Shown here in pieces: positions 8,928-47,535 of a stretch of 64,000 bases of DNA (positions within the stretch are counted from its first letter, which is position 1; each line of letters starts with the position of its first letter). The notes beneath the pieces were generated by a model. It was not told where the DNA came from, ran no database searches, and saw only the letters and a list, made by a program, of their open reading frames with translations. The position numbers and the translations under genes are program-made. Where the stretch lies: UHGV virus genome UHGV-0287696; one strand, 5' to 3'. The stretch is from a virus.

Positions 8928-9133
8928 AAAGAGCTAATGGATACATCATCTCAGCGATTGTTTCAACCGTGCTGGTTGTGACGATGCTGATGTTTTATGT
9001 CCGTGTGTCAGATGACTCGCGCAAAGAAAGTCTTTATCGTGAGTGTATGTCAGGAAAGACCGTAGACGATCCGCGTTACGCCGAATTAGTAATGGCGTGT
9101 ACGGAATACGCTAAACGAATGGGAGATGGATGA
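8909..9133 (+). CDS. small membrane protein
   Basis: 74 aa with one hydrophobic helix (IISAIVSTVLVVTMLMFYV). Confidence 0.4.
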   Translation: MVFYTMKRANGYIISAIVSTVLVVTMLMFYVRVSDDSRKESLYRECMSGKTVDDPRYAELVMACTEYAKRMGDG

Positions 9134-9330
9134 TGAAAATTTGGTTGCCGATTCTAGTTTTTATCCTTATCGCAGGTGCACTAGCAAGTGCTGAGTACGA
9201 TAATCGTGTTCTAGAAACAAAACGTGAATTGTATCAGGATTGTATAAAGGATTACACACCCGGTACAGAGCTTCATGCACAGGCTGTGAAAAGTTGTGCG
9301 TTGATGGCTGAATCGCAGACTCGTTCCTAA
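9130..9330 (+). CDS. small secreted/membrane protein
   Basis: 66 aa; N-terminal hydrophobic segment (MMKIWLPILVFILIAGALASA) resembling a signal peptide. Confidence 0.4.
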   Translation: MMKIWLPILVFILIAGALASAEYDNRVLETKRELYQDCIKDYTPGTELHAQAVKSCALMAESQTRS

Positions 9331-9704
9331 TGCGTATCTGGACGTTACAGCTCGCTAAGTGGCGGTTAGCTAAGCAGAAAGGGTTTCACGCAGTGGATAT
9401 CACTGTGAAGTCAGGGCGAAAGGAACTCGCCCCCGATTGGGATTTCTTGATGGCGTATAAAAACTCTGCAAAGGATGCAGCTGCTGAACGCGAGTACACG
9501 CTAAAGTATTTGTACAAACTCGAACGACTGTTAGATACCGACGCCGAAACTTTAGTGTCGTTACTTAGGCACGAAGATTTGGTTTTGATGTGTTATTGTC
9601 CCGCAGGCAAGTTTTGCCATCGTCATCTACTGGCGAGCAAGCTTCAAGAAGTGGGATTGATGTTCGGTATCGACGTTGAGTTGTGTGGAGAATTAATCGA
9701 ATGA
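9330..9704 (+). CDS. hypothetical protein with Cys/His cluster
   Basis: 124 aa; CYCPAGKFCHRH cluster near the C-terminus. Confidence 0.45.
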   Translation: MRIWTLQLAKWRLAKQKGFHAVDITVKSGRKELAPDWDFLMAYKNSAKDAAAEREYTLKYLYKLERLLDTDAETLVSLLRHEDLVLMCYCPAGKFCHRHLLASKLQEVGLMFGIDVELCGELIE

Positions 9705-10135
9705 AAGTAAAAGCAGAAATAACGGTGATACCTGAAAGACAGGATATTAAAGTTAAAGGGTTATTATTGACATTACCTCGTTCGGATTTCTACGATCCTG
9801 AAAATCCCGCCGCAGCGTTTGCGCGCCTACTAAGACATCACATGAGCGTTTGTGAGGCTATTAAAGATCCTACAGAATTCAATACTGACTTTCCAAAAAC
9901 TGTCAGTATTGAATTTTCTGGTGGCCATCTTACTGACATCATGGTGACAGCGGACGATAATAACGTTGAAGTTTATGGTGAGTTTTGTCCGGGTGGTGTA
10001 TACGGTGACGATGTTCGAAACTTTATTATTGAGCATGGTTACGTAGATCTAAAACCACGCATAATGTATCGCAACGATAAAATTTTAGAAATCCGATTCT
10101 TTGATATCAATCTAGCAAAGTCCGTTAAAGCGTAG
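9701..10135 (+). CDS. hypothetical protein
   Basis: ORF track frame 9683..10135; ATG at 9701 overlaps the upstream stop and has GGAGA upstream. Confidence 0.45.
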   Translation: MKVKAEITVIPERQDIKVKGLLLTLPRSDFYDPENPAAAFARLLRHHMSVCEAIKDPTEFNTDFPKTVSIEFSGGHLTDIMVTADDNNVEVYGEFCPGGVYGDDVRNFIIEHGYVDLKPRIMYRNDKILEIRFFDINLAKSVKA

Positions 10136-10168
10136 TAACTACTTCGATTTTTAGCTGTAAAATGACTG

Positions 10169-10212
10169 CCTACCGCCCGATTCTATGGGCGGTAGGTGTT
10201 TTTATTTTTTTT
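10169..10212 (+). terminator. rho-independent terminator
   Basis: hairpin cctaccgccc-gattctat-gggcggtagg followed by a long T-run. Confidence 0.8.
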
Positions 10213-10228
10213 GATCTGGGAGGTTTTA

Positions 10229-10789
10229 GTGACTACTTACGTACCTGATTTAAGTCTGGCCTCAGCCGAATTAGTGGTCGCTTTAATCAACCACGATAAC
10301 GGTTCACGGTTGTCTCTAAACGAAATCCGTATTAGCAACATTATGGCAAACCCGTCCCCGACCACTTCGCGTCGTAACACACTGACAGAGATTACAAAAA
10401 TCAGGAAACCTGATGGTGCTTCTGTGGTTGTTTATTACGACCGTTTGGATGCGGACGAAGTGTTAGCGTCTGAACCTATTTTGATTTCGTTAGACGGTAC
10501 CGAAGACAACCTTCGTGACATTTTAGGTGTTGTAAATGAATTCTGCGGAACGAACTTACAACCCGAAGATTTACGTGCTGCAGATATCACCTTAGGTAAC
10601 GAACCCATTGCTGTTAACGTTGCTGACGATTCTCCTGCGTGGATGAATGCGTTTATGGTAACGTTATTCGATACAACCGAACGAGCATTAGCAAACGAAG
10701 ATGACGCGATCTTCTGTATTGGTGATGATGCTGTTCTTACTTTTGAGGTTCCAGATGACGACACAGCTGAAGAAAACCCGGCTACATGA
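10229..10789 (+). CDS. hypothetical protein with shared DLxxIN-NLQxxDL domain
   Basis: ORF track start 10196 lies inside the terminator; GTG at 10229 with GGGAGG 5 nt upstream is the likelier start; C-terminal motif EDNLRDILGVVNEFCGTNLQPEDL recurs in 16184, 26039 and 26901. Confidence 0.5.
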   Translation: MTTYVPDLSLASAELVVALINHDNGSRLSLNEIRISNIMANPSPTTSRRNTLTEITKIRKPDGASVVVYYDRLDADEVLASEPILISLDGTEDNLRDILGVVNEFCGTNLQPEDLRAADITLGNEPIAVNVADDSPAWMNAFMVTLFDTTERALANEDDAIFCIGDDAVLTFEVPDDDTAEENPAT

Positions 10790-10991
10790 ACTTGACCGTT
10801 TTACCGGTAATGGAGGCCAACGCAAACTTTTATCAAAACTTAACAATCCCAAATCATGAAGCGCGGAGTTGGGCATCACTTTCACGTTAGAAGATGATGG
10901 ATTAAAACCAGTATAATAATCCGCTTATAAAAATGTTGAGGGGTAAAACACTTCCTCAGATCTTTTAGCTCCCGATAGAGAATTAAATATC

Positions 10992-13900
10992 ATGGCTAAA
11001 GCGGTAAAGAAAATTCGTTTACACGATTTACGTCCATACACCGGGGATATCGGTGAAGGCGTTTTACTTTTTTCGAAAGACGAAAGGGATTATCAGTTAC
11101 CTGTCCGCGAGATTGTTGCGGATATTGACACCGTCAGAAACGCGGTTGCCGACGCACAAACGGCGGCGGCCAAATCGCAACAGTCTGCAACAGAAGCCAC
11201 ACAAGCAAAAGACTTAGCAGAAACCGCGAAGCAACAAACTGACACGTTAGCTTCCACCGTTAGCGAGCAAGCGGGAACCGTTGCCACTAAAACTGCTGAG
11301 GTTAGCAAAAAACACGCTGAAGTTTTAGCCGCGAAAACTGCCGTAGATACTGTATTACAGTCGGTAAATGAGAAAGCTCAAGCTGTCGCTACAAGCGAAC
11401 AATCGGTGACGGCTGCAGCGGCTGATGTAACTAAGAAAGCAGAAACGGTTACGCAACAGGCCGGACAAGTTCAACAGACGGCTACCGGTGTCGAGAATAC
11501 TGCGGCTTCAGTTGAGGCCAGTAAGGGCGCAGTGGAGAAGATTGCTGCACAGGTCGCGAAAGATAAAGAAAGTTCAGAAGGCGCAGCAACACGTTCGGAG
11601 TCAGCTGCCTTACGTGCGGAGAAAATCGCTGCGCAGGGCTTAATCGACGCTAGTACAACCGGTAAAGGTATCGTTAAACTTAACGATACACTGACTAGCG
11701 AATCCGTGACTGAGGCTGCCACACCGTCCACGGTTAAACAGCTGAATGACGAATTACAGTTAAAAGCCAATAAACATTCGCCGAATTTTACGGGTAAACC
11801 GTCATCCCCAACACCCCCGAAAGATTCAAACGACACGAGTATTTCCACAACGGCCTGGGTGCGTGACGCGATTGCGGAACTGGTTGGTTCTTCACCCGAG
11901 ACGTTAAATACCTTAGCGGAATTAGCTGAGGCGTTAGGTAATGACCCTAACTTCGCAACAACGATTACTGGGGAACTTGCGCAGAAACAACCCCTCAGTC
12001 CGTTGCTCACCGCCATTGCCGCAGTCACCACAGCGGCAAACAAACTCATGTATTTCACTGGCAGTAATAAAGTCGGATTAACGGATTTTACAGAAACGGC
12101 TAGATCCTTGTTAGCGAAAGGGTCAACTGCGGATATCATCAATTTCTTGGGATTAAAAGCCACTGTAGATAAAGCGAATAGCGCGTTACAGAAAAACTCT
12201 AACGGCGCTGATATCCCAGATAAAGAAATGTTTGCTCGCAATATCGGTCTGTCTCCTGACACCTATCTGCGTTTCCGTGGCGAAATGCCAGTAGATGCCG
12301 ATATTAACACATTTGCTCCTGATGCCAATTACACAGGAACGTGGGCTAAGTCGACGTCAACCAATGCGTCGATGGCAAAACATTTCCCAGAAGACGGTGC
12401 AGTCGGTTATCTGGAAGTGTATAAAGCCGGTAATTACAGTGGCGCACAGCGTTTTACCTGCCGTAATGGTAACGTGTACAACCGTATGCTGAGTGGCGCG
12501 TGGAATGGTGCCAATGGACCCTGGTCACCGTGGAGAATGGTAACTACTGGTGTACGTCCGTTATCTACCTCTATAGACTTGAACAGTTTGGGTGGCGCTG
12601 AGCATATGGGTAACTGGCGAAACTCGTCCAGTTCGCTGGCTGTTTTTAGCAGACATTACCCTGAAGAAGGTGGTGGCGCGCAAGGCGTACTAGAAGTAAT
12701 GGAAGGTGGTCTTTTCGGACGGTTGCAACGATACACCACACGTCGTGGTACAATGTATGTCCGTGGTTTGACCGCAACGTGGGATTCATCAAACCCGCAA
12801 TGGGAAGATTGGATTCAGGTTGGTTATCAGACTGACGGTGCTTTCTTTAAAGCCAATTTTGACGATCTCGTTAAACCGGGACGTTTCAGTGTCACTGGTG
12901 AAGCAACTAATGGTCCACTTACCGGTTCTTCTGGTGAAACCATATTAGGCGTTTGTGAAGTTACCTTACGCTTAGACGGTACAGGGGTCGAACAGAATTA
13001 TACTACATACGGTACGGGTGTAGAAACTAAAGGTCGTAAATTCCAACGTATCCGTACGGGTAACGCTTGGAGCGATTGGCGCGAGATTTTCACATCATAT
13101 TCGCTTCCGTTAGTATTAGGTATAGGCGGTGAACGCGCGAATGTTGATCCTTTAGACTGGCAAACCTATGACTTTAAACCGGGTGAGTTAATCTGTACAC
13201 CACTTAACACCATGAAAAACATTCCTGCGGGAATGGATTGGGGTGTTATTGACGGTAACTTAGTTAGCATTCTGGTTGGTCCATCAGATGGCGCATCCTC
13301 AGGCCGGAGTATGTTGGTTTGGCGTAGTACGGTGTCTACTGCCAACTATCGATTCTTTGCAGTACGTATCGCCGGTGAGAAAGGTAGTCGTACGATTACA
13401 CCACGACAGATGCCTGTATTGAATGCAGCACACACCTGGGCAGAAAAACAGACCTTTGCAAAAGGGTTAGCAGGTGAGTTAACAGGCAATGCTTCAACCG
13501 CAACGAAATTAAAGACCGCACGTAGAATTGGTGGAGTCGCTTTCGACGGCAGTGGTGATATTAACCTCCCAGGTGTTAACCAACAGGGTAATCAAAACAC
13601 CACGGGTAATGCCGGTACAGCCACTAAACTTCAAACCGCCAGAAATATTAACGGTGTGAGGTTCGATGGTTCTGCTGACATCAATATCAACACCCTGGTA
13701 GGTCGTGGTCGGGTTACTGCACTAACCGGTTCAAACAAAGGTACGCCTGGTATTCAGATGTACGAAGTTTACAATAACGGTTATCCGACCGCTTATGGTA
13801 ACTTGCTGCATTTGGGCGGTTCTACTGCATTAGGTGAAGGTGAACTGTTAATCGGTTGGTCGGGCACGAGTGGTGCGCACGCACCCGTTTATATTCGTAG

Positions 13901-15590
13901 TCGACGTGATACAGCGGATGCGCCGTGGTCAGATTGGGCACAAGTTTATACTGCCCGTGATAGTATTCCTGGTGTAAATACCACCGGTAATCAAGATACT
14001 ACTGGTAACGCTGCTACCGCGACGAAACTGAAAACTGCTCGCAGAATCGGGGGCGTTACCTTTGACGGTACTGGGGATATCAATTTACCGGGGGTTAACC
14101 AGCAAGGTAACCAGAATACGACAGGTAATGCAGCAACCGCTACTAAGTTACAAACAGCACGTAAGATCGGCGGTGTTAACTTTGACGGTTCGCAAGACAT
14201 TAGTCTGCCCGGTGTGAACCAAACCGGTAACCAATCGACTACGGGGAATGCTGCGACAGCGACTAAGCTCCAGACTGCGCGAAATATAGGTGGCGTAGCT
14301 TTTGATGGTACTAAAGACATCAACTTACCTGGCGTAAACCAAACGGGTAATCAGTCGACCACCGGAAACGCGGCCACTGCAACAAAATTGCAGACAGCGC
14401 GTACCATTAACGGTATCGCATTTGACGGCACTAAAAACATCGAAATAACGGCTGAAAGTTTAAATCTTGGTCAAACTGTAGAATTGGCCGGTGGGTCATT
14501 GCAGAAGAAACAGAACGGTGCCGATATTCCAGATAAGAGAAAATTCTTACGAAATGTTGGTGCCGCGAACACAACAACTGTGTCTTTTAATGGTGGTGCC
14601 GGATGGTTCAAACTGGCAACTGTAACGATGCCGCAAGCCAGTTCCGTGGTTTACATAAGCCTGATTGGTGGTGCAGGGTTTAACGTTGGTTCCCCGCATC
14701 AAGCAGGTATCTCTGAGCTGGTTCTGCGTGCAGGAAATGGGAATCCAAAAGGTATTACTGGTGCGTTATGGCGACTGACTTCAGTCGGCTTCGCTAATTT
14801 TGCATGGGTGAATACATCTGGTGACACTTACGATATTTATGTTGAAATAGGTAATTACGCCACCGGTGTTACTATTCAGTGGGATTACACTAGTAATGCC
14901 AACGTAACGATTCATACATCGCCAAGTTATACGGCTAATAAACCCGCAGGACTAACAGACGGTACCGTCTATCTGATTTACAGCACACACAACAAGCCTA
15001 ACGCTGGTGACATCGGTGCGTTACCGTCAGGGGGCGGTACTATAGGTGGCGATTTAACCGTTAACGGTAAATTGGTCACTAAGTACCCTGATTTTCGAAT
15101 CGCTTACGGCAACTACGGCTTTATGTTACGTAACGATGGTGCCAATACCTATTTCTTAGTAACCGACGCCGGTCAAGCTGCAACGGGTTCCTGGAACGGT
15201 CTACGTCCGTTGTATTTTAATAATGCTAACGGTCAAGTAACCTTTGGTCATAACGTTACTGGCAGCGGTAACGGTTCGTTTAACGACGTACAGATTCGTT
15301 CTGACCGTCGTAACAAACGTAATCTGGTGAAACTAGATAAAGCTTTGGATCGGTTAGAGTTACTAACCGGTTATTTGTACGAAATTCAGCATCCTGACGA
15401 CGGCTGGCAGACCTCTGTAGGTTTAATTGCCCAAGACGCATTAGAAGCGTTACCTGAACTTGTGTCTGAGGACGACGATGCCATTTCAGGCGAAAAACGT
15501 TTACGTCTAAACTACAATGGCGTTATTGCGCTGTTAGTAGAGGGGATGAAATCCCTTCGCCAAGAGCTTAAAGAGCTTAAGGAGAAATAA
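10992..15590 (+). CDS. side tail fibre protein with C-terminal intramolecular chaperone (peptidase S74-like) domain
   Basis: 1532 aa; tail-fibre signature LNTLAELAEALGNDPNFATT; six tandem 40-aa repeats (GNAATATKLQTAR.IGGV.FDG..DI.LPGVNQ.GNQ.TTG); C-terminus SDRRNKRNLVKLD...YNGVIALLVEGMKSLRQELKEL matches the self-cleaving chaperone of endosialidase/T5 L-shaped fibre. Confidence 0.9.
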   Translation: MAKAVKKIRLHDLRPYTGDIGEGVLLFSKDERDYQLPVREIVADIDTVRNAVADAQTAAAKSQQSATEATQAKDLAETAKQQTDTLASTVSEQAGTVATKTAEVSKKHAEVLAAKTAVDTVLQSVNEKAQAVATSEQSVTAAAADVTKKAETVTQQAGQVQQTATGVENTAASVEASKGAVEKIAAQVAKDKESSEGAATRSESAALRAEKIAAQGLIDASTTGKGIVKLNDTLTSESVTEAATPSTVKQLNDELQLKANKHSPNFTGKPSSPTPPKDSNDTSISTTAWVRDAIAELVGSSPETLNTLAELAEALGNDPNFATTITGELAQKQPLSPLLTAIAAVTTAANKLMYFTGSNKVGLTDFTETARSLLAKGSTADIINFLGLKATVDKANSALQKNSNGADIPDKEMFARNIGLSPDTYLRFRGEMPVDADINTFAPDANYTGTWAKSTSTNASMAKHFPEDGAVGYLEVYKAGNYSGAQRFTCRNGNVYNRMLSGAWNGANGPWSPWRMVTTGVRPLSTSIDLNSLGGAEHMGNWRNSSSSLAVFSRHYPEEGGGAQGVLEVMEGGLFGRLQRYTTRRGTMYVRGLTATWDSSNPQWEDWIQVGYQTDGAFFKANFDDLVKPGRFSVTGEATNGPLTGSSGETILGVCEVTLRLDGTGVEQNYTTYGTGVETKGRKFQRIRTGNAWSDWREIFTSYSLPLVLGIGGERANVDPLDWQTYDFKPGELICTPLNTMKNIPAGMDWGVIDGNLVSILVGPSDGASSGRSMLVWRSTVSTANYRFFAVRIAGEKGSRTITPRQMPVLNAAHTWAEKQTFAKGLAGELTGNASTATKLKTARRIGGVAFDGSGDINLPGVNQQGNQNTTGNAGTATKLQTARNINGVRFDGSADININTLVGRGRVTALTGSNKGTPGIQMYEVYNNGYPTAYGNLLHLGGSTALGEGELLIGWSGTSGAHAPVYIRSRRDTADAPWSDWAQVYTARDSIPGVNTTGNQDTTGNAATATKLKTARRIGGVTFDGTGDINLPGVNQQGNQNTTGNAATATKLQTARKIGGVNFDGSQDISLPGVNQTGNQSTTGNAATATKLQTARNIGGVAFDGTKDINLPGVNQTGNQSTTGNAATATKLQTARTINGIAFDGTKNIEITAESLNLGQTVELAGGSLQKKQNGADIPDKRKFLRNVGAANTTTVSFNGGAGWFKLATVTMPQASSVVYISLIGGAGFNVGSPHQAGISELVLRAGNGNPKGITGALWRLTSVGFANFAWVNTSGDTYDIYVEIGNYATGVTIQWDYTSNANVTIHTSPSYTANKPAGLTDGTVYLIYSTHNKPNAGDIGALPSGGGTIGGDLTVNGKLVTKYPDFRIAYGNYGFMLRNDGANTYFLVTDAGQAATGSWNGLRPLYFNNANGQVTFGHNVTGSGNGSFNDVQIRSDRRNKRNLVKLDKALDRLELLTGYLYEIQHPDDGWQTSVGLIAQDALEALPELVSEDDDAISGEKRLRLNYNGVIALLVEGMKSLRQELKELKEK
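13480..14460 (+). repeat. tandem 120-bp (40-aa) coding repeats inside the tail fibre gene
   Basis: two copies near 13480-13690 and four near 13975-14450; the repeats create the spurious antisense ORF 13991..14323. Confidence 0.8.
15300..15587 (+). other. predicted intramolecular chaperone domain with autocleavage at Ser1437
   Basis: IRS|DRRNKRNL junction and conserved C-terminal helix; by analogy to S74-family fibres the domain is released after trimerisation. Confidence 0.6.
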
Positions 15591-15592
15591 AA

Positions 15593-16096
15593 ATGGGGGT
15601 AGCATCTGGATGGGTCGGTTCTTCGGCCAAGAACGAAACGGGCGAACAATGGATGAGCGCTGCTGGTAGTAAATTAGGATTGGGTAGACCTTTTATGATG
15701 AGTCAAATGGTGGGACGATCAATGGGCTGTAAAATTGCAACTGCTGCATATAGCGATTCTTTAGGTAAGAAATGGGGCGCGGTAGGGCCAAGCTGGCCGT
15801 TAAACCAGAAAAATCAGGGAACCATTCAAAACGCGGGTAACTGCGGGGTGGGAACTTTAGTAGGTATCGAGTTACAGTTAACGACGATAGTTGCTAACGC
15901 AAAACCCACTTTAGCGGTTTACTTACAAGGTGGGAGAGCCTCTAACATTACCGTAAATTTAGGTGGCAACACTTGTACGCTGACCTATCAGCAGGTTATT
16001 AACGGACAGCATTATTACTGGACTAATAACATCAGCGCTGCGTTCCAAAACGTGATGAAATCAACCGGTACACTGAGAGATTTCAAAATTAGTTAA
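15593..16096 (+). CDS. hypothetical Gly/Ser-rich protein downstream of the tail fibre
   Basis: 167-aa ORF starting 3 nt after the fibre stop. Confidence 0.5.
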   Translation: MGVASGWVGSSAKNETGEQWMSAAGSKLGLGRPFMMSQMVGRSMGCKIATAAYSDSLGKKWGAVGPSWPLNQKNQGTIQNAGNCGVGTLVGIELQLTTIVANAKPTLAVYLQGGRASNITVNLGGNTCTLTYQQVINGQHYYWTNNISAAFQNVMKSTGTLRDFKIS

Positions 16097-16183
16097 TTAT
16101 TTTTCAAGTGGAAGCGCTTGAAATCGTAATCGGGGGGATGTTTTAAAAGACTTTCTACGTCCCCCTAAACTTAAAGGTGTGTT

Positions 16184-18118
16184 ATGATGTTGGTGCGCGA
16201 TATTAAAGATTACACCGAACTAGCAACATACGCGTTAAATTCGTTGTTAACGCTTGACAAACCAGAAATACTCGACGAATCCGTCACGATAACGGTAGAT
16301 CAAGAAACGAACTATGATTACGTTGGCCAAGTCACTGGTCGTGTTTCTGTAGCTAGTCCCACTGAATATAAAATTGCGATGTATACCTATACAACGGGAG
16401 AGTACGCGCAAGGTGAATCAGCATTAAACGAATCGGGTGAGTTTAATTTTAAACGAACATGGCCGGGGACAAAACAATTTCGTTTAATTAGAATTGCTGA
16501 TGGCAAATGGATTTCTACGTTAGAGTTCCCATTGTGCATCCGTAGTTACCATATGCCAGAAAACGCGGACCCTGAAACGATCAGGATTATGAAAGATCGG
16601 TGTTATACTTACGATCAGGCTGTTGCTGCTCTCGCATTAATGGTATACGGTCATGAAAAGGTAGAACAGTTTGTAAAAGGTCTTTTAGCGCTGGTCAATG
16701 AAGACGGGGGCGTTAAATTCTACGTAAACCGACTTTCAGCTAAATCTTCGCGAAATTATTACCGTATGGGTAACGTCGCGTGGGTACTTTACGCTTTAGC
16801 TTTTTATCTTGAAAAATTTCCTGCCGGAAATCTAGCGGCACAGGTTCGTGAAAAATTAACACTTTCCTTAACCTGGCTGGAAACTTACAAGGTAACGCAG
16901 GAGACAGATCGCCGCAAAGGTTTATATCTTGGTGGAAAGGGTCGTTTTGTTACTACCGAATCAGGCGAACGTGTTTTTGAAGAAGACTACGTTGCACCTT
17001 TTGCGGCTTTAGAACATCAGGTAGATATTTGGTTCCTGTTCGAATTACTAGGGCGCGTCGGTTTTGATGCATACCAACAAAAAGCAGCGGACTTCGGTAA
17101 TAGAATAGTAGAAGCTTTTTGGATGGAAGACGAAGGACGTTTTCGTCAGGGTGTGAGAGAAACAGAAGATGATAACGCAGCTGCGTTAGATCAGTCCAGT
17201 TGGGGTGGGCTATTTGCGGCCAAATTTAAACCAGAGTACGCCGAACGTTGTCACGCTTTTATGGAGAAATTTCGCTCGGAAACCTCTGAGTGTCGTGGCT
17301 ACACACCATACAAAACCGAGTTTGGTTACCCTAATGCTAAAGAAGGGGTGTGGGTTGAAGGTGCCGCCGGTGTTGCATTATTCGAACGTCAGTTAGGAAA
17401 TGATAAACGTGCTGTTGAGATCATTAACGACTTAGATGTTCTTTTATCAGAATACGGTTATCGTGATTCTTGCGATGATCCTACCTATGATACGCTGCCG
17501 CCGTGGTGGTCAACCACAAACACTGCATGGGTGCTTTTAGTCTGTAAGCCAAGTAATTTTTGGCTTGTAGATAAGTCTCCTTTAACGGAGAGATATAATC
17601 CGCAGAATAAATTTTTACCAGATATTTCATTAAACTCTTTAAATCTTGTAATTTCGTTAGTGAATCACGATTTAAAAACAGATTACACGGAGTCTGATGT
17701 TGAAATCAGCAAGATTTCACTTAGCACGGAAGAAAATCGTGACACAACAGCGATAATGGAAATAAGACGTCCTAATAAACGGTCGTTACAGATCTATTAC
17801 AATCGTTTAACCGCAGAGCGGTGGTTAAACCAGCAACCTATTCTGGTAAAGGTCACCGGTAATGGTTTTACTACTCGCGATCTGATCGACGGAATTAATG
17901 CGGTCTGTGGTAGTAATTTACAAGCCGACGATCTTACCGATAAAACATTTACCGTAGGGAGGGACGCTGTAACATTACAAGTTTCACCCAACTCGCTAGG
18001 TTATAAAGGCCAATTCTCCGTTCTGGTTTTCGGTAACGATGAAGAAGCCGCAGTAACAAAAGACAACGATTTAATCGTTACTGCAGATAACCGTGTCTTA
18101 ACATTCGGAGGTCACTAA
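16184..18118 (+). CDS. hypothetical large protein, possible glycoside hydrolase-like fold (tentative), with C-terminal shared domain
   Basis: 644 aa; C-terminal FTTRDLIDGINAVCGSNLQADDL matches the 10229 protein; enzyme assignment is weak, from sequence impression only. Confidence 0.5.
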   Translation: MMLVRDIKDYTELATYALNSLLTLDKPEILDESVTITVDQETNYDYVGQVTGRVSVASPTEYKIAMYTYTTGEYAQGESALNESGEFNFKRTWPGTKQFRLIRIADGKWISTLEFPLCIRSYHMPENADPETIRIMKDRCYTYDQAVAALALMVYGHEKVEQFVKGLLALVNEDGGVKFYVNRLSAKSSRNYYRMGNVAWVLYALAFYLEKFPAGNLAAQVREKLTLSLTWLETYKVTQETDRRKGLYLGGKGRFVTTESGERVFEEDYVAPFAALEHQVDIWFLFELLGRVGFDAYQQKAADFGNRIVEAFWMEDEGRFRQGVRETEDDNAAALDQSSWGGLFAAKFKPEYAERCHAFMEKFRSETSECRGYTPYKTEFGYPNAKEGVWVEGAAGVALFERQLGNDKRAVEIINDLDVLLSEYGYRDSCDDPTYDTLPPWWSTTNTAWVLLVCKPSNFWLVDKSPLTERYNPQNKFLPDISLNSLNLVISLVNHDLKTDYTESDVEISKISLSTEENRDTTAIMEIRRPNKRSLQIYYNRLTAERWLNQQPILVKVTGNGFTTRDLIDGINAVCGSNLQADDLTDKTFTVGRDAVTLQVSPNSLGYKGQFSVLVFGNDEEAAVTKDNDLIVTADNRVLTFGGH

Positions 18119-18738
18119 TGGCTGAACTGGTAGGAAAGGTACGCGTTCACGAACTGCCGACACTTTCAGAAGACGTCACAGGTGTAGTCGTCTTAGCGTC
18201 TAAAGAACAAACTGAATACCAACTCCCGATTGAAAAATTAGGGGGTGGTGAGGTTACAGTGAGTCCGTCGGCGAATAACATCCTTAAGTCTAACAGTGAT
18301 GGGTTGTTTGTTAATGGTGCGCACCCGATTGTACCAAAAATAGATGCAAAAACCGTATCGGGAAATATGGTAGTAGAAAAAACGTTGACGGGTGGTGCGG
18401 TAATCTGCAAAACAACGGTTGACGTTAATAACAGGCTGGGTGTTACGCAATTATCAGGGGTATCAATTTATAGCCAGTGTCTGTTGGAAAATAAATTGGT
18501 TTACCTGGCAGCAGATGGTGGTATTATTGATGCGTACTTCTACGTTAGTGGTACAAAAACCACAGCGAGTACAATAACCCACACCATTCGTGTTGTTTTA
18601 GCGAAGGTACCCTCTAAAGTTGTCGATATCACCGATTTGTCTGAAACCGAAGTACAATACGAGAATAGTAATTTACCTGTTAAGATCGTTATTAAACATC
18701 TTGCAGGGACAACACTTTCTCAGAACGGAATGAAATAA
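18118..18738 (+). CDS. fibre-related protein sharing the N-terminal domain of the 1532-aa tail fibre
   Basis: 206 aa; N-terminus GKVRVHELPTLSEDVTGVVVLASKEQTEYQLPIEKL parallels KKIRLHDLRPYTGDIGEGVLLFSKDERDYQLPVREI of 10992. Confidence 0.6.
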   Translation: MAELVGKVRVHELPTLSEDVTGVVVLASKEQTEYQLPIEKLGGGEVTVSPSANNILKSNSDGLFVNGAHPIVPKIDAKTVSGNMVVEKTLTGGAVICKTTVDVNNRLGVTQLSGVSIYSQCLLENKLVYLAADGGIIDAYFYVSGTKTTASTITHTIRVVLAKVPSKVVDITDLSETEVQYENSNLPVKIVIKHLAGTTLSQNGMK

Positions 18739-18744
18739 ATTTTA

Positions 18745-18790
18745 GGTAGTAGGGGCTAAGCCCCTACTACCTTTCTTTTTTTATTTTTTC
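18745..18790 (+). terminator. rho-independent terminator
   Basis: hairpin ggtagtagggg-ctaa-gcccctactacc followed by T-run. Confidence 0.8.
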
Positions 18791-18816
18791 TCAGATATAT
18801 ATTACCTAGAGGAGAG
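18790..18816 (+). promoter_or_regulatory. promoter-like box CAGATATATATTAC
   Basis: ctcagatatatattacctagaggagag about 50 nt upstream of the ATG at 18864; one of five related copies. Confidence 0.45.
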
Positions 18817-18863
18817 CGAAATTTACGTTCACTCCATTAGTTATAGCCGAAAAGGAGGATTAG

Positions 18864-19715
18864 ATGCATCACCCGTATTATCTCCCGCACATTCTAGCAA
18901 ATAGGGACCCCGCTTATTATTACGGACAAACAGAAGGATCTTTTAATCGACTTTACATTCGTGAATTTAATACCGATGAAATGACGGACGACCAGTATCT
19001 GGAGTATCTAAAAGACCTTTACGGTTTTTCAAAATCGAATAAAGATGGCTTTGGACGCCTCTCAGTCATTAGCGATGGTGAATATCGTCATTTAGCTAAG
19101 CCTGTTACGTACCCTATTATTACACGCGCTTATACATCAGATAGGCAATATCTTGCTGAACTAAAAATTCCTCTACGGATAGACGGGCCCCAAATTAGCT
19201 GTATGGAGGTAGAAATTCAACCGATTGCTGAAGACTATATTGAGGACTACTTCAAGAAAGCTAAAGACGTACTCGACGAGGGTTTAAGTTACTCTGAAGA
19301 AGGTACGATTTGTCTTCTCTCGCTACTCTCGAAGACTTATGTCACAGCAAATTTCCGTGTCTCTGATTCCAGTAACTACAATACACTTACTCCCTCTAAG
19401 ACAAAACCGGTCTATTGGGACGATCGGTTAGTCGACAGACACCGTTGGCTTACTATCTTAGATAAAGTAAAATTCGAACCCCCTAAACACACCGAAGACA
19501 ATTTTACTTTATTACACAACTTCGAACCGATCTATATCCCGACACATTTTGAACAAGCCTTACGTCATCGGTTGAAGTATGTGTTGGAATTACGGTACGG
19601 GAAGATAAATGGGCTAACCTGTTCTGGTGAATTGGGTGAAGAAGAACGCGAGAAAATAAAAATCGTGTTTGATAAGTTGGTTGAAGATTACATTAAGAAG
19701 GAAGGGCAATTATGA
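18864..19715 (+). CDS. hypothetical protein
   Basis: 283 aa; AAGGAGG Shine-Dalgarno. Confidence 0.6.
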   Translation: MHHPYYLPHILANRDPAYYYGQTEGSFNRLYIREFNTDEMTDDQYLEYLKDLYGFSKSNKDGFGRLSVISDGEYRHLAKPVTYPIITRAYTSDRQYLAELKIPLRIDGPQISCMEVEIQPIAEDYIEDYFKKAKDVLDEGLSYSEEGTICLLSLLSKTYVTANFRVSDSSNYNTLTPSKTKPVYWDDRLVDRHRWLTILDKVKFEPPKHTEDNFTLLHNFEPIYIPTHFEQALRHRLKYVLELRYGKINGLTCSGELGEEEREKIKIVFDKLVEDYIKKEGQL

Positions 19716-38041: not shown

Positions 38042-41000
38042 TTAAGATGTAAACATAAGATTGAACTGGAGCTTATCGATATCGCGCGTTTGTGCTGGGT
38101 TAACCGCGTCGTACGTGGTTGCCACGTAGACCGTTAATGTCCCGTCAGCAAACGAGGTTTTCACCGGTGGCGTAGTCCCTGTCTGTCCATCAGTTACAAT
38201 GACGACAGGTTGAGCCGGGAGTTGATGGAACTGACCCTTAACCGCTTTATACACCAAACCAGATTGTGCTGCTAACTCCGTGTCGGTGTACACGATAAAC
38301 GGTGTGTCGATATCTGTCTGTTTAATGACAGTGTTCGTCTCAACGTCAATCAGCTGAACAGCACCGAACTTCGTACGGTAGCTATCGTATTCATTTTTTG
38401 GAATGACAAACGTAGCATGTACACGGACTTCTTCGGCTGGCTTAAATCCGGCGTGTTCTTTTTCCAGATAGCTGTTAGCAGTTAACGTTACTGTCTGTTC
38501 AGTCATCGTACCACCAGACTGGTTTAACCCGTAACGAACTTGGGTTATACCTGTCGGAGCCGCAAGCCTGATTTTTAGTCTACGGTTAGCGGTGCCGGGA
38601 TTACCAGGCACTCTAACACGCAGGCTCAAAGCCAGATATGCATTCGCACCGGTAGTCGGTTTCGTATACGCACCCAACCACTTCATATTCGCGGTTGCCG
38701 CTTGACTGTTCTCAGAAGCAGTAGCCGCTGCAACGTTCGCAGCAACCGCTTTCTGCCAGAACTGGTCAGCGCAGTTTTCATACGCTACTCTACCGATACT
38801 TTTATAACCTGCGTAGGTTTCCTGTATCGGCAGTTTGGGACGTGTTGTGATCCCGCTCAACGCATTCCATCTCTGACCATCGACATACCCTGCACCATTG
38901 CTCGCGGATGCCGTGGGGGCTTTCAGCGGTTGGTTAACCAAGGTTTGGAGTGGACCCGTTTTTCGATCGTACGCCGCTGCAACGTCGTGCTGATCCCTAA
39001 CAGCAGCGTGTTCTTCTAATTCACGAACCCTGCCTAACCGTTTCACTTTATCGATGTTAATAGCAACTATACGCTTTTTATCGGTTGTAACTGTACCAAC
39101 AAATAATCGCGAACTCGTATCCGGCAGCTTTTCCAGACCGATCTGATATTGAGCTTTCGAACCTACAAGAGCAGCATGAACATAGAACGTCTGGTTAGCA
39201 TGGTTTTCTGGGAACTCGTTGCTTAAATCCACCGACCACGTCGGTAATGTATAGCTATTACTACCGAAATCTAACCTGACCTCTTCCGTCAAGTATAGAA
39301 TCCAACCTTCCGCAGTCTCCACGCCTGCAATAATAACCGCCTGCCCCGCTGTTGAGAATGTGGTATCATTAACGAACTCTTCGACTGTGTATGCGTTACC
39401 TGAACAGAAAACGCGGTCAGCTTTAGAGAAAATTCGTGCCATCTTGTCCCAATTACCCGCACCCATGTAACAACCAGATTCTGGGTTGTGGGCAGGAGCC
39501 ATCTGACGCAACTGTGACTTACCGGGAACGCGAGTCCAACCCGACCCAGGGTTAAAGGTATACTTCGCAGCGTAACCCAAAGCATTTAGGTCCCCGATAT
39601 TCCGTATTGTCAGCGTATAAGGCAGCCATAGACCGAAGTTTACACCGTCGGCAGAAGCAAATATGGGCTGGCCTACACGTCGCGTTTTATTACCCGCTTC
39701 TTCCCTCAGAGACTGATAACTTAAGCCGTAATCAAGGTCTAAGAACCAATCAACGAGTTTGAAAGTAGCCGAGTTAAAACGTAGATAACCATTTTCTTTA
39801 GTCGGACTTACCATGAAGTAATAGATGTCGAGGACCCGACGTCCGTTACTCAAGATTTTCATGCATGAAACTTGTAATAAGTCGAATTCACAAACGGTGT
39901 TAATGCCTAGCAACCAGAGTGCAAACAATGCATTGCCGCTTTGGTGTGCTGCACTGATGCGCTCGTTCGCGTAACCATTTGCCTGACCAGATGGTGCGCC
40001 ATCGACAATCATCCTAATCATCTTCTGGCGATCCGCTTCCTCTAACGTCAGCCGTTCTGATGACAGGGCAAAGTTACCGTAGATGTTCCGATATGGAAAG
40101 GTTTCCGCTTTCGTCAAATACCAACCGTTTAACTGACCGTGACGCTCCTCAGGAGTCATACAAGCAGCCATACAGCTTAACTGTTCGTAAAGGGTTGCAT
40201 CAACTTCTCGACGGTTGTTGTTCGGACCATAACCACTATATCCAGGAACGTCATAAGGTTTACTTGGGTCAACTTCTACTTCGATCGTATAGCGGTTGCG
40301 CGGATTGGATAGCCATACTTTGTTTGAGCCACCGATACCAACAGGATGAGAAAGACCGATGGTATAGATAGAACCACGACCTTTATCCCAAGTAAATGTT
40401 GCTTCGCCTGAGGTATTGTTTGGGTTATCATAACGCAGATAATCAAAAAACTCTTTGCCTTGCGTACTTTTAATAGTAACGTTCGGCATCTGGTCCGCAT
40501 CGTTAGTCTGCCAGCAGGAAAGCATCATTCCTGAGACATTAGGTTTAGCATACGTCGCAAAACAACGATTGTTTGCTTGGCCGCCACCCCACTTACGACT
40601 GGTTTCTACAGTTGAGCCATCCGCGTACGATAGTCTGGTAGCATCAACCTTAATGGGGAAACGTTCGGCACCCTCTAACGTAACTCTGCCCGTTAACGTA
40701 TCGATTGTGAAACTTGTTGACCATTGACGGAAATTAATCGTCGTACCGTCGGCAGCCGCAAACCACACGCTGGGTACATGGTTCACACGAATCACGCTGT
40801 CGCGTACCGCACAAGCATGGTTACATTCTGGACCGTGAACAAAGTTGTGACCGATTGTCCATTTAGCCCGTGCCTCTGGCGGGTAATACGTAAAGAACTG
40901 ACCAGTCTGCGACTCTTCGGTCTTCTGGCCAATTCTTAGGCAGAGGTTATCTCCGAATTGCCCCATTTCTCCGGTTAGGGTTACACGTTCAAATTCTAAC

Positions 41001-43225: not shown

Positions 43226-43257
43226 CGTAAAGACTCCTACTTTTAAATAAAATGGAT

Positions 43258-43280
43258 ACCCCTCCCCATTACAGGGAGGG
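43258..43280 (-). terminator. minus-strand hairpin with U-rich tail between large fibre genes
   Basis: cccctcccc-attaca-gggagggg with AT-rich tract 43241-43255; conserved 11-mer at 43285-43295 lies just upstream on the minus strand. Confidence 0.5.
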
Positions 43281-43319
43281 GTTACCTACGGACACACAAC
43301 TGCCCGCAGGCAGCCTGTC

Positions 43320-47525: not shown

Positions 47526-47535
47526 AAAAATCTCC

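What the first reader, a model, noticed from the sequence alone, without database searches (positions are those of the whole stretch)
10992..18738. Two different proteins share the same N-terminal putative anchoring domain
The first roughly 40 aa of the 1532-aa fibre and of the 206-aa protein at 18118 are clearly related, suggesting both dock to the same virion adaptor, for example alternative or accessory receptor-binding proteins.
Basis: seen in the sequence. Interest (0 to 1): 0.5.

Follow-up and report, generated by a model that had tools for sequence, protein, structure and literature searches.

The report
Shared fibre-anchor module in jumbo phage
Two different tail proteins of a giant (SPN3US-like) phage really do begin with the same ~41-residue module, which in related phages heads many different receptor-binding proteins and almost always sits next to a small baseplate-type (DUF7941) gene, so it is most likely the plug that mounts interchangeable host-recognition proteins on the tail.

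Summary
Residues 1-41 of the 1532-aa fibre and of the 206-aa protein align without gaps (39% identity, E=8e-8; 0 of 200,000 shuffles reach the score). A profile built only from other phages picks out exactly these two N-termini, plus a third, vestigial copy at 10755-10820.

The window comes from a jumbo phage related to SPN3US. The N-anchor has no Pfam or PHROG family. It is always at residue 1 and is joined to at least eight different bodies, including a long fibre, a lectin-like head and a SASA esterase. The SPN3US orthologue gp123 is found in virions but not in tailless particles.

The genes just upstream are also paralogous (E=5e-31). Both are short DUF7941 modules, related to the phiKZ gp127 N-terminal domain, which is modelled in the outer peripheral baseplate. 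So the real unit is a repeated pair, [DUF7941][N-anchor protein]. The 3' pair (D2/S2) has overlapping stop and start codons; D1 and the fibre are 203 nt apart.

In two independent swaps among relatives, the DUF7941 C-terminal tail changed together with the downstream N-anchor protein. I infer that the N-anchor docks receptor-binding proteins onto DUF7941 adaptors, probably on cognate paralogues rather than on one shared adaptor. Docking was not tested. This is a new member of a known kind.

The parts
10167..10208 (+). Intrinsic terminator that closes the upstream unit and marks the left edge of the host-recognition cassette.
   Evidence: 13-bp stem with 8 GC pairs followed by a T run.
10229..10789 (+). 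D1: a short DUF7941 protein (186 aa) made of an N-terminal globular domain and an acidic C-terminal tail. It is the candidate adaptor. The likely true start is GTG 10229, not 10196.
   Evidence: Pfam PF25613 scores 69.6 bits against a cut-off of 27. It is 45% identical to SPN3US gp122. A profile of the family hits phiKZ gp127 residues 17-153 in PDB 9xqd with E=1.8e-4. A GGGAGG Shine-Dalgarno sequence lies 5 nt before GTG 10229, and homologues start at this point.
10755..10859 (+). Vestigial third N-anchor gene, the 5' remnant of an S1 (SPN3US gp123-like) gene. It reads MTTQLKKTRLHELDRFTGNGG..., loses the family signal after about 22 codons (10820) and stops at 10859.
   Evidence: HMM E=5.5e-4 to 2e-3 over model positions 1-22. 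Relative L008 has an intact S1 plus a 1001-aa tail protein at this site (L008 10565-13949), and that stretch is absent from the window.
10992..11117 (+). N-anchor of the long fibre F (residues 1-42).
   Evidence: It is 95% conserved in relatives, with dN/dS 0-0.08.
10992..15590 (+). F: the 1532-aa long tail fibre. It consists of the N-anchor, an Ala/Gln-rich rod, a Phage_fiber_2 repeat, knob-like and gp37-like repeats, a gp34-type trimerisation domain and a C-terminal S74 intramolecular chaperone.
   Evidence: Pfam matches to PF03406, PF21446 and PF13884; PHROG matches to tail-fibre families.
15593..16096 (+). gp38-like tip adhesin (167 aa) that goes with fibre F.
   Evidence: Pfam Gp38_N scores 72 bits against a cut-off of 25; phrog_1121 'tail fiber adhesin' E=3e-46.
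16184..17596 (+). Receptor-binding or enzymatic domain of the 644-aa protein (residues 1-471): a beta-sandwich followed by an (alpha/alpha)6 glycosidase-like barrel.
   Evidence: AF2 pLDDT is 90-99 over residues 5-470. Foldseek matches rhamnosidase 4xhc (E=2e-8) and GH63/GH76/AGE-type barrels. The domain is 50-60% identical to the C-terminal domain of more than 90 clusters of E. coli prophage tail fibres.
17612..18118 (+). D2: the second short DUF7941 module, here fused in frame to the C-terminus of the receptor-binding domain. The joint reads ...SPLTERY-NPQNK-FLPDISL.... In relatives D2 is a stand-alone 170-171-aa gene.
   Evidence: Pfam PF25613 scores 51.9 bits against a cut-off of 27. It is 34% identical to D1 (E=5e-31). 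Stand-alone D2 occurs in L007, L008, L017, L020, L021 and L024. Only one database cluster (P0027, identical to the window) has the fusion.
18118..18243 (+). N-anchor of S2 (residues 1-42). Its ATG overlaps the D2 stop codon (TAATG), and a GGAGG sits inside the end of D2.
18118..18738 (+). S2: the 206-aa protein, made of the N-anchor, a Gly linker and a beta-sandwich head (residues 72-200, 18331-18717).
   Evidence: AF2 gives the head pLDDT of about 90 and the N-anchor 31-36 as a monomer. BFVD matches are a Serratia phage BF protein (E=1e-11) and an H-type lectin domain protein (E=1e-3). S2 is 88-98% conserved in about 20 clusters.
18744..18772 (.). Bidirectional intrinsic terminator that closes the cassette.
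   Evidence: 13-bp stem with 8 GC pairs and T runs on both strands.

Best explanation
Region 10229-18738 is the variable host-recognition cassette of an SPN3US-like (chimallivirus-type) jumbo phage.

Its organising unit is a gene pair: a short DUF7941 protein (D) followed by a protein that starts with a ~41-aa N-anchor. The window carries the pair twice:
- D1 followed by the long fibre F and its gp38-like adhesin.
- D2 followed by S2, a small lectin-like head protein.
- The stump of a third N-anchor gene (S1) also remains.

Proposed mechanism (inferred):
1. The globular N-terminal domain of D is fixed at the rim of the peripheral baseplate, as the N-terminal domain of phiKZ gp127 is.
2. The acidic C-terminal tail of D, together with the mostly basic, beta-strand-prone N-anchor, forms the joint that mounts each receptor-binding protein.
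3. The anchor folds only on docking.
4. Because the joint is conserved and the bodies are not, fibres, esterases, lectin-like heads and glycosidase-like domains can be exchanged at these slots. In this phage one receptor-binding domain has been welded directly onto D2.

What is shown: the homology, its strictly N-terminal position, purifying selection, diversity of bodies, synteny, copy-number correlation with D, tail location of the SPN3US orthologue, and homology of D to a baseplate-resident protein.

What is inferred: physical docking of the N-anchor on D, and the cognate pairing of D1 with S1/F and of D2 with S2.
For: 1. The N-anchor is real and constrained.

2. It is a modular head-piece.
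- An exhaustive HMM search of 1.84 billion representatives gives only 20 hits, nearly all at residues 1-44.
- The hit proteins are 133 to 1494 aa long with unrelated bodies, among them P0132, which carries SASA esterase and DUF6645 domains.
- Klebsiella jumbo phage Eowyn has 5 such fibres, KpGz_1 has 7 and KpHz_2 has 6.

3. It is linked with D-type DUF7941.
- Every genome or locus that has N-anchors and enough upstream sequence also has short DUF7941 genes in the same cluster.
- The counts scale together, N-anchors/D: SPN3US 1/1, window 2(+1)/2, L008 3/2, Eowyn 5/4, KpHz_2 6/5, KpGz_1 7/6.
- The gene after D2 always starts with an N-anchor even when its body changes: 206, 133, 706 or 709 aa.
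- Stop and start codons overlap or nearly touch.
- DUF7941 arrays of other types (Goslar, Phobos, SA002, window 26039-27377) have no N-anchor nearby.

4. The trees are congruent: D1 with S1/F anchors, D2 with S2 anchors.

5. There are two independent module swaps whose left breakpoint lies at the boundary between the D domain and the D tail.
- Asesino versus L011: D domain 90% identical, tail 27%, S1 mostly different, and the following protein 96-100% after its first 50 residues (72%).
- L008 versus L017: D2 domain 81%, tail 37%, and the partner changes from S2 to a 706-aa esterase.

6. Location.
- A profile of D hits the phiKZ gp127 N-terminal domain. That domain is modelled at the end of the gp139 band of the outer peripheral baseplate (PMC13250141).
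- DUF7941 tails are proposed to dock on neighbouring protomers (bioRxiv 10.64898/2026.04.21.720040).
- In SPN3US, gp123 (16/16/23 PSM), gp124 and gp122 (7/7/8 PSM) are seen in whole virions; gp123 and gp122 are absent from tailless particles and gp124 drops to 8/9/3 PSM (PMC10052503 Table S2).

7. AF2 leaves the N-anchor unstructured in the monomer while the head is confident, as expected for a docking peptide.
Against: - No interaction was computed or measured.
- Adjacent genes are co-transferred by recombination whether or not they interact, so the covariation of tail and anchor could be hitch-hiking. There are only two events.
- N-anchor genes outnumber D genes, and about half of them are not directly preceded by a D gene (F in L008, Eowyn gp233 and gp237, P0127 in L021).
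- SPN3US gp122 is scarce and its authors labelled it 'Non-virion'. Earlier work suggested it belongs to a paralogue family of head proteins.
- Profile-profile comparison shows no homology between the N-anchor and the DUF7941 tail.
- The D2 part of the 644-aa model is of low confidence.
- Nothing shows that the window's own S2 or F is in the virion.
Confidence: 0.6

Rival explanations
1. The N-anchor is a shared attachment module, but it plugs into a different baseplate component. Candidates are the three gp131-like giant paralogues at 38042-51858, or homologues of phiKZ gp139, gp27 or gp26. On this view the neighbouring DUF7941 genes are independent peripheral-baseplate or 'fibre cloud' subunits that merely share the operon.
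For: N-anchor genes outnumber D genes, and several are not adjacent to one. The Goslar preprint gives DUF7941 proteins a role of their own as self-assembling filaments. Large parts of the peripheral baseplate are still unmodelled in phiKZ and Goslar.
Against: N-anchor and D-type copy numbers scale together across six lineages, and N-anchors were not found next to other DUF7941 types. Two swaps changed the D tail together with the anchor protein. Stop and start codons overlap. The gp124-like tail protein cannot be the socket, because it is absent from the window, L007 and L017, which keep N-anchor proteins.
Confidence: 0.22
2. The D-type DUF7941 proteins are not virion parts. They are assembly factors that recognise the N-anchor and help fold, trimerise or deliver the downstream protein, then leave.
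For: SPN3US gp122 gave only 7-8 PSM and its authors classed it as non-virion. It was undetected in an earlier proteome. The tight translational coupling resembles fibre/chaperone pairs.
Against: gp122 peptides appear in all three whole-virion replicates and in none of the tailless ones, which is the tail pattern. The homologous phiKZ gp127 domain is built into the cryo-EM baseplate map. Goslar DUF7941 proteins are found in purified virions. Known fibre chaperones usually lie downstream of the fibre gene, and this clade already carries gp38, Caudo_TAP or DUF4376 genes in that position. In the window D2 is covalently fused to a receptor-binding domain, which makes little sense for a transient chaperone.
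Confidence: 0.1
3. The shared N-terminus is only a relic of an old duplication, or a homology patch that promotes recombination, with no common function. S2 may not be a structural protein.
For: The similarity is short (41 aa). S2 has no named family, and its head has no significant match to a solved structure.
Against: Third codon positions are saturated while the protein is conserved, so there is no DNA homology to recombine on. dN/dS is 0-0.19. The same module heads at least eight different bodies in several genera. The SPN3US orthologue is a tail protein. S2 is 88-98% conserved across about 20 clusters.
Confidence: 0.04

Closest known systems
phiKZ tail-fibre base: gp131, gp133, gp134 and gp135 share a gp131-like N-terminal region that forms a hetero-hexameric anchor on the outer peripheral baseplate (PMC13250141)
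   Same: Several different fibre proteins of a chimallivirus share an N-terminal anchoring region while their C-terminal parts differ. The attachment site is the peripheral baseplate.
   Different: It is an unrelated sequence family. The N-anchor profile finds nothing in the PDB, which does hold the phiKZ baseplate entry 9xqd (gp127 chain). The window has its own gp131-like family, three paralogues at 38042-51858 equivalent to SPN3US gp168-170. The module here is only about 41 aa and is paired with DUF7941 genes.
DUF7941 (PF25613) proteins of chimalliviruses: Goslar gp22/gp23 and phiKZ gp126/gp127 (bioRxiv 10.64898/2026.04.21.720040)
   Same: D1 and D2 pass the Pfam threshold and match the gp127 N-terminal domain. 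They have the domain-plus-tail layout of Goslar gp23. The idea that the tail docks on a partner and that DUF7941 modules carry host-recognition domains is taken from that work.
   Different: The preprint describes DUF7941 binding DUF7941 in head-to-tail filaments, with N-terminal DUF7941 followed by recognition domains. Here the proposed partner is a non-DUF7941 anchor peptide of fibre proteins. The fused recognition domain sits N-terminal to DUF7941. The 40 kb of Goslar that I examined has five DUF7941 genes and no N-anchor.
SPN3US gp122-gp123-gp124 and Asesino gp139-gp140-gp141 (Seoulvirus, Erskinevirus)
   Same: These are orthologous gene strings: D, then a small N-anchor protein, then a 1000-aa tail protein. 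gp123 and gp124 are classed as tail proteins by mass spectrometry.
   Different: Those phages have a single pair. The window has lost S1 and the 1000-aa protein. It has gained a T-even-like long fibre with a gp38-type adhesin, a second D/anchor pair, and a receptor-binding domain fused to D2.
Branched multi-receptor-binding-protein systems with conserved N-terminal docking domains (CBA120 TSP1-4, G7C gp63.1/gp66, SP6/K1-5 adaptor, RaK2, phiK64-1). The specific systems are named from my own knowledge; the general principle of reused N-terminal anchor domains is also stated in bioRxiv 10.64898/2026.05.12.724579
   Same: The logic is the same: a conserved N-terminal attachment interface, exchangeable distal modules, and several receptor-binding proteins per virion.
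   Different: There is no detectable sequence relationship. The anchor here is much shorter than those docking domains. The candidate adaptor is a DUF7941 protein, a family that the Goslar preprint reports only from chimalliviruses.
T4 gp37/gp38, and T5 pb1 / K1F-type fibres with an S74 intramolecular chaperone
   Same: The body of F uses these well-known modules: gp34-type trimerisation domain, Peptidase_S74 and a Gp38_N adhesin.
   Different: Those fibres attach through other N-terminal structures. Only the distal parts are shared.

Membership tests
Unnamed N-anchor family of jumbo-phage fibre N-termini (SPN3US gp123, Asesino gp140, Eowyn gp230/233/235/237/239) | Significant match to a family profile that was built without the query. 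| tested here: met
   Leave-out HMM: F E=1e-11, S2 E=8e-7, next-best background hit 1.3.
Unnamed N-anchor family of jumbo-phage fibre N-termini | The module starts at Met1 and is followed by an unrelated body. | tested here: met
   Both window copies span residues 1-42. Of the 20 hits in the 1.84-billion-protein search, nearly all start at residue 1, in proteins 133-1494 aa long.
Unnamed N-anchor family of jumbo-phage fibre N-termini | Encoded in a cluster with short (D-type) DUF7941 genes. | tested here: met
   D1 ends 203 nt before F. The D2 stop codon overlaps the S2 start.
Unnamed N-anchor family of jumbo-phage fibre N-termini | The protein is a tail component of the virion. | not testable with these tools
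   Only the orthologue has data: SPN3US gp123 gives 16/16/23 PSM in virions and 0 in tailless particles.
DUF7941 (PF25613) | Score above the Pfam gathering threshold. | tested here: met
   D1 scores 69.6 bits and D2 51.9 bits against a cut-off of 27. Both match profile positions 3-153 of 276, which is the N-terminal domain.
DUF7941 (PF25613) | Homology to a member with a solved position in the virion (phiKZ gp127 N-terminal domain). | tested here: met
   A profile of 8 D sequences matches PDB chain 9xqd_0 (PHIKZ127) with E=1.8e-4, residues 17-153.
DUF7941 (PF25613) | Head-to-tail oligomerisation through the linker or tail. | not testable with these tools
phiKZ gp131-like N-terminal fibre anchor | Sequence similarity of the N-terminus to gp131, gp133, gp134 or gp135. 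| tested here: not met
   The N-anchor profile and S2 find no PDB chain at E<=10 and E<=1 respectively. The window's gp131-like relatives are different genes.
DUF7941 linker/tail (the idea that the N-anchor is a copy of it) | Profile-profile similarity between the N-anchor and the DUF7941 C-terminal tail. | tested here: not met
   hhalign probability 0.2%. There is no DUF7941 hit for S1, S2 or the first 60 residues of F at E<=1.
Fibre body families (Phage_fiber_2, Gp34_trimer, Peptidase_S74) and Gp38 adhesin | Score above the Pfam gathering thresholds. | tested here: met
   Scores against cut-offs: 40.1 vs 22, 61.6 vs 27, 40.8 vs 22, and Gp38_N 72.1 vs 25.
Six-hairpin (alpha/alpha)6 glycosidase-like fold (N-part of the 644-aa protein) | Confident model with significant structural matches to (alpha/alpha)6 enzymes; catalytic residues present. 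| tested here: inconclusive
   The fold criterion is met: pLDDT 90-99, Foldseek E=2e-8 to rhamnosidase 4xhc and many (alpha/alpha)6 enzymes. Catalytic residues and activity were not examined.

The most novel reading that the evidence does not exclude
Short DUF7941 proteins and the ~41-aa N-anchor form a specific plug-and-socket code on the peripheral baseplate of a subset of chimallivirus-type jumbo phages. Each D paralogue's C-terminal tail would select its cognate anchor subtype: D1 with S1/F, D2 with S2 or the esterase type. The number and position of receptor-binding proteins on the virion would then be set by how many D/anchor pairs the genome carries, from one in SPN3US to six or seven in Klebsiella jumbo phages. 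This would explain how the still-unmodelled fibres attach in these phages. It would also offer a rational handle for re-targeting jumbo phages by swapping bodies behind the anchor.
Probability: 0.35. Interest if true: 0.6.

Novelty: new member of a known kind. Interest (0 to 1): 0.5.

Why it matters
Both 2026 cryo-EM studies, of phiKZ and of Goslar, leave most of the peripheral baseplate and the fibre attachment unresolved. The Goslar preprint introduces DUF7941 proteins as a new host-recognition element whose partners are unknown.

The gene-pair rule found here gives a concrete hypothesis that can be tested directly: what plugs into short DUF7941 proteins, and through which 41 residues.

It also marks exact splice points, after residue ~42 of the anchor and after residue ~145 of D. 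Nature has exchanged receptor-binding modules at these points. That is useful for engineering the host range of SPN3US-like Salmonella/E. coli phages and of Klebsiella jumbo phages.

In itself, the sharing of an N-terminal anchor by several receptor-binding proteins is a familiar principle of phage biology.

Tried and rejected
- **N-anchor as a copy of the DUF7941 tail, mimicking head-to-tail docking.** hhalign gives probability 0.2%, and there are no Pfam hits. Rejected as homology. Functional complementarity remains possible.
- **D plus S as a split full-length DUF7941 (N-terminal domain in D, C-terminal domain in S).** Neither Pfam nor the BFVD/PDB fold matches of the S2 model link S1 or S2 to DUF7941. 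Not supported.
- **The 1000-aa gp124-like protein as the socket.** It is absent from the window, L007 and L017, which keep N-anchor proteins. Rejected.
- **The 644-aa N-part as a relative of gp124.** No similarity.
- **PDB sequence searches.** D1 alone, S2 alone and the N-anchor profile all found nothing. Only the D profile reached phiKZ gp127.
- **Word-indexed search with the N-anchor profile.** It returned only five truncated fragments. The exhaustive search was needed.
- **The search for related loci with the broad D alignment.** It failed for lack of a conserved stretch. A narrower alignment worked.
- **Fold search of S2 against the PDB.** Only non-significant beta-sandwich hits.
- **DNA search of 9000-20000 against phage genomes.** Only three short fibre-fragment hits. 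No close sequenced isolate is in that collection.
- **Tandem Repeats Finder on the fibre gene.** No arrays.
- **Sigma-70-type promoter scan.** Not above shuffled expectation.
- **SPFM paper on positive selection.** No information specific to these genes.
Full report
**1. The observation**

- BLASTP aligns residues 1-41 of one with residues 1-41 of the other, without gaps. There are 16 identities and 29 positives, E=8e-8, and nothing else in the two proteins is similar.
- The ungapped BLOSUM62 score is 86. In 200,000 shuffles the maximum was 35.
- A profile built from seven N-termini of other phages, with both window sequences left out, was run against all 1005 six-frame peptides of the window. 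It retrieved the fibre (E=1e-11), the 206-aa protein (E=8e-7) and one more hit at 10755-10820 (E=2e-3). The next hit was E=1.3.
- At the DNA level the two copies are 49% identical, and only 10 of 42 third codon positions agree. This is an old, protein-level conservation and not a recent duplication.
- Among close relatives, dN/dS in the module is 0-0.19. For example, one pair shows 11 nucleotide differences and no amino-acid change.

**2. What the window is**

The large virion proteins on the minus strand, and the genes around the finding, are 40-50% identical to those of Salmonella phage SPN3US, Erwinia phages Asesino and phiEaH2, and their relatives. These are jumbo myoviruses of about 240 kb. 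No sequenced isolate in the phage collection is close at the DNA level. Metagenomic contigs of 220-227 kb (L006-L009, L017, L021) are 83-96% identical in the D1 protein or share the gene order. Nearly identical copies of the 206-aa protein occur in Salmonella, Shigella and E. coli assemblies.

**3. The unit is a gene pair, not just a shared N-terminus**

The gene upstream of the fibre (10196/10229-10789) and the last ~170 residues of the 644-aa protein upstream of the small protein (16184-18118) are themselves paralogous: 34% identity over 169 aa, E=5e-31. Both are Pfam DUF7941 (69.6 and 51.9 bits against a cut-off of 27), matching the N-terminal half of the model. I call them D1 and D2, the fibre F and the 206-aa protein S2.

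- D1 most likely starts at GTG 10229, which lies behind a GGGAGG and aligns with the start of its homologues.
- The D2 stop codon and the S2 start codon overlap (TAATG), and a GGAGG sits in the last D2 codons.
- Strong intrinsic terminators at 10167-10198 and 18744-18772 bracket the whole block.

**4. A third, vestigial copy**

The extra profile hit at 10755-10820 reads MTTQLKKTRLHELDRFTGNGG... In relatives L008 and L009 this position holds an intact small N-anchor protein (S1, the orthologue of SPN3US gp123), followed by a 1001-aa tail protein (orthologue of gp124). The window lacks the equivalent of L008 10565-13949. The window's lineage therefore once had three N-anchor genes.

**5. Distribution of the N-anchor**

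No Pfam or PHROG family covers the N-anchor.

*Gene strings in related genera.* The string D / small N-anchor protein / 1000-aa tail protein is conserved in Seoulvirus (SPN3US gp122/123/124) and Erskinevirus (Asesino gp139/140/141).

*Klebsiella jumbo phages.* In Eowyn, five tail-fibre or depolymerase genes (gp230, 233, 235, 237, 239) all begin with the module and are interleaved with four short DUF7941 genes. KpGz_1 has 7 anchors and 6 D genes, and KpHz_2 has 6 and 5.

*Exhaustive search.* A profile search of 1.84 billion representative proteins found only 20 hits, nearly all at residues 1-44. The proteins were 133, 154-156, 188, 205, 259, 273, 706, 710 and 1494 aa long.

*The slots in the window's own clade.* The slot after D2 holds different proteins in different relatives:
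- S2 (206-207 aa);
- a 133-aa protein;
- a 706-aa SASA-esterase protein;
- a 709-aa protein (N-terminus not read);
- in L020, S2 followed by a 710-aa anchor protein.

A further 273-aa anchor protein can follow gp38. All except the 709-aa protein were read and start with the N-anchor.

*Other DUF7941 types.* DUF7941 genes of other types have no N-anchor nearby. I checked Goslar gp22/23/31/33/34, the Phobos and SA002 arrays, and window 26039-27377.

**6. Where these proteins sit**

- A profile of eight D sequences matches phiKZ gp127 residues 17-153 in the PDB (9xqd, E=1.8e-4).
- In the phiKZ atlas, the gp127 N-terminal domain terminates the gp139 band of the outer peripheral baseplate (PMC13250141).
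- The Goslar preprint (bioRxiv 10.64898/2026.04.21.720040) defines DUF7941 as chimallivirus-specific. It predicts that the linker or tail of one protomer docks on the N-terminal domain of the next, shows gp22 filaments, and proposes baseplate-anchored host-recognition filaments.
- SPN3US proteomics (PMC10052503, Table S2) gives these spectral counts in whole virions: gp123 16/16/23, gp124 186/185/159 and gp122 7/7/8. In tailless particles the counts are 0/0/0, 8/9/3 and 0/0/0. The authors class gp123 and gp124 as tail proteins and gp122 as non-virion. An earlier paper did not detect gp122.
- Normalised by mass, the three are roughly 3 : 4 : 1 (gp123 : gp124 : gp122). This would fit trimers on a monomeric adaptor, but spectral counts are only semi-quantitative, so I treat it as a hint.

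**7. Evidence that D and the anchor belong together**

*(a) Copy numbers scale together across six lineages* (section 5).

*(b) The identity matrices are congruent.* D1-type proteins group with each other and D2 lies outside. S1 and F anchors group with each other and S2 anchors lie outside.

*(c) Two independent replacements among near-identical genomes have their left breakpoint inside D, at the boundary between the globular domain and the tail.*

| Comparison | D domain identity | D tail identity | Downstream change |
|---|---|---|---|
| Asesino vs L011 | 90% | 27% | S1 largely different; the 1000-aa protein is 72% in its first 50 residues, then 96-100% |
| L008 vs L017 (D2) | 81% | 37% | S2 replaced by the 706-aa esterase; anchors 50% identical |

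*(d) The anchor is unstructured in an AF2 monomer* (pLDDT 31-36), while the S2 head is confident (about 90).

*(e) Complementary charge.* The anchor start is basic (KKxR) and the D tails are acidic. This complementarity is read directly from the sequences and is anecdotal.

Arguments against are as follows. Adjacency alone makes co-transfer likely. Anchors outnumber D genes, and about half of them are not directly preceded by one. The anchor is not homologous to the DUF7941 tail.

**8. The other parts of the region**

- **F** combines the anchor with an Ala/Gln-rich rod, a Phage_fiber_2 repeat, gp37-like repeats, a gp34-type trimerisation domain and an S74 intramolecular chaperone. A gp38-like adhesin follows it. 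This is a T-even/T5-style long fibre grafted onto the jumbo-phage anchor.
- **The 644-aa protein** is a tidy in-frame fusion. Residues 5-470 are modelled with pLDDT 90-99 as a beta-sandwich plus an (alpha/alpha)6 barrel. They match rhamnosidase 4xhc (E=2e-8) and GH63, GH76 and AGE-type enzymes.
- **That domain elsewhere.** It is 50-60% identical to the C-terminal domain of more than 90 clusters of E. coli, Citrobacter, Salmonella and Yersinia prophage fibres. Those fibres carry four different N-terminal anchors (PF08400, PF12571, PF18668, PF03406). There the domain always ends the protein. Only the window's own cluster has it joined to DUF7941 (...SPLTERY-NPQNK-FLPDISL...).
- **D2 in relatives** is a stand-alone gene of 170-171 aa. 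A receptor-binding domain welded to D2 fits D being a structural mount. The order is the reverse of the Goslar fusions, where DUF7941 comes first.
- **The S2 head** matches a Serratia phage BF protein (E=1e-11) and an H-type lectin domain protein (E=1e-3) in BFVD. Matches to the PDB are not significant.

**9. Comparison with what is known**

- That several receptor-binding proteins share an N-terminal anchor is a familiar principle. A 2026 preprint on Klebsiella phage receptor-binding proteins states it explicitly.
- In phiKZ, gp131, gp133, gp134 and gp135 share an N-terminal region that forms the fibre base. The module here is unrelated to that family, and the window has its own gp131-like paralogues.
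- I found no description of this ~41-aa module or of its pairing with short DUF7941 genes. DUF7941 appears in only two papers of the searchable library, and the one that analyses the family, the Goslar preprint, does not mention such a partner.

**10. Verdict**

The module is very probably a shared virion-attachment domain of alternative or accessory receptor-binding proteins (about 0.8). Its socket is most plausibly the D-type DUF7941 protein encoded upstream, probably in cognate D1 and D2 versions rather than one common adaptor (about 0.5-0.6). This last step is inference.
- Novelty: a new member of a known kind.
- Interest: moderate. It offers a concrete handle on the unresolved fibre attachment of chimallivirus-type phages.

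Noticed in passing
window 10755-10859 (+): Remnant of a third N-anchor gene (S1, SPN3US gp123-like), overlapping the end of D1 in another frame. The rest of S1 and a 1001-aa gp124-like tail protein, present in relatives L008 and L009, are deleted here, in L007 and probably in L006, whose contig ends just downstream.
   Followed up: yes
window 10196-10260: The mechanical ORF start (GTG 10196) of the DUF7941 gene is probably wrong. GTG 10229 follows a GGGAGG and matches the homologues' start. The 5' extension overlaps the terminator hairpin at 10167-10198.
   Followed up: yes
window 16184-18118 (+): Unusual fusion of an (alpha/alpha)6 glycosidase-like receptor-binding domain, which is otherwise always the C-terminal end of E. 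coli prophage tail fibres, placed in front of a DUF7941 module. Only one database cluster, identical to the window, has this architecture. Catalytic residues were not checked.
   Followed up: partly
window 26039-26887 and 26901-27377 (+): Two further, more divergent DUF7941 N-terminal-domain proteins (282 and 158 aa, E about 1e-12 to the D profile). They are not followed by N-anchor genes and may correspond to the abundant Goslar gp22/gp23 type or to SPN3US paralogue family B.
   Followed up: partly
window 38042-43225, 43320-47525, 47536-51858 (-): Three paralogous giant virion proteins (1727, 1401 and 1440 aa). They probably correspond to SPN3US gp168-170, which are likened in the literature to phiKZ gp131. 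This would be a second, unrelated set of proteins that share an anchoring region.
   Followed up: partly
window 32433-33755 and 33739-34662 (-): Two adjacent radical-SAM domain proteins (phrog_1802), next to a conserved gene of unknown function at 34684-35583.
   Followed up: no
window 9330-9704 (+): A DUF488-N3a protein lies two genes upstream of the cassette (a 150-aa ORF at 9683-10135 lies between); a DUF488 gene sits in the same upstream neighbourhood in SPN3US and L017.
   Followed up: no
SPN3US gp122 (L004 1320-1853; PMC10052503 Table S2): The D orthologue gives 7/7/8 spectra in whole virions and none in tailless particles, which is the tail pattern. It is nevertheless labelled 'Non-virion', and an earlier paper tentatively placed it in a head-protein paralogue family. 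That classification may need revisiting.
   Followed up: partly
L017 8001-10121; L020 7354-10133; L021 6001-10120; L024 6001-6402: The slot after D2 is a hot spot. It holds S2, a 133-aa protein, a 706-aa SASA-esterase protein or a 709-aa protein, and in L020 S2 followed by a 710-aa protein. All that I read start with the N-anchor. Several are followed by DUF4376 genes, which could be their chaperones.
   Followed up: partly
P0007, P0013, P0016, P0017, P0022: Near-identical copies of the 206-aa protein sit on contigs of up to 178 kb in assemblies labelled Salmonella, Shigella and E. coli. This suggests that this lytic-type jumbo phage travels with bacterial cultures, either in a carrier state or as contamination.
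   Followed up: no
window 13990-14445 (+): Diverged internal repeats in the fibre gene (gp37-like 'GNxxTATKLxTAR...FDG' units). They give several off-diagonal blastn matches to relatives but fall below the Tandem Repeats Finder threshold.
   Followed up: partly
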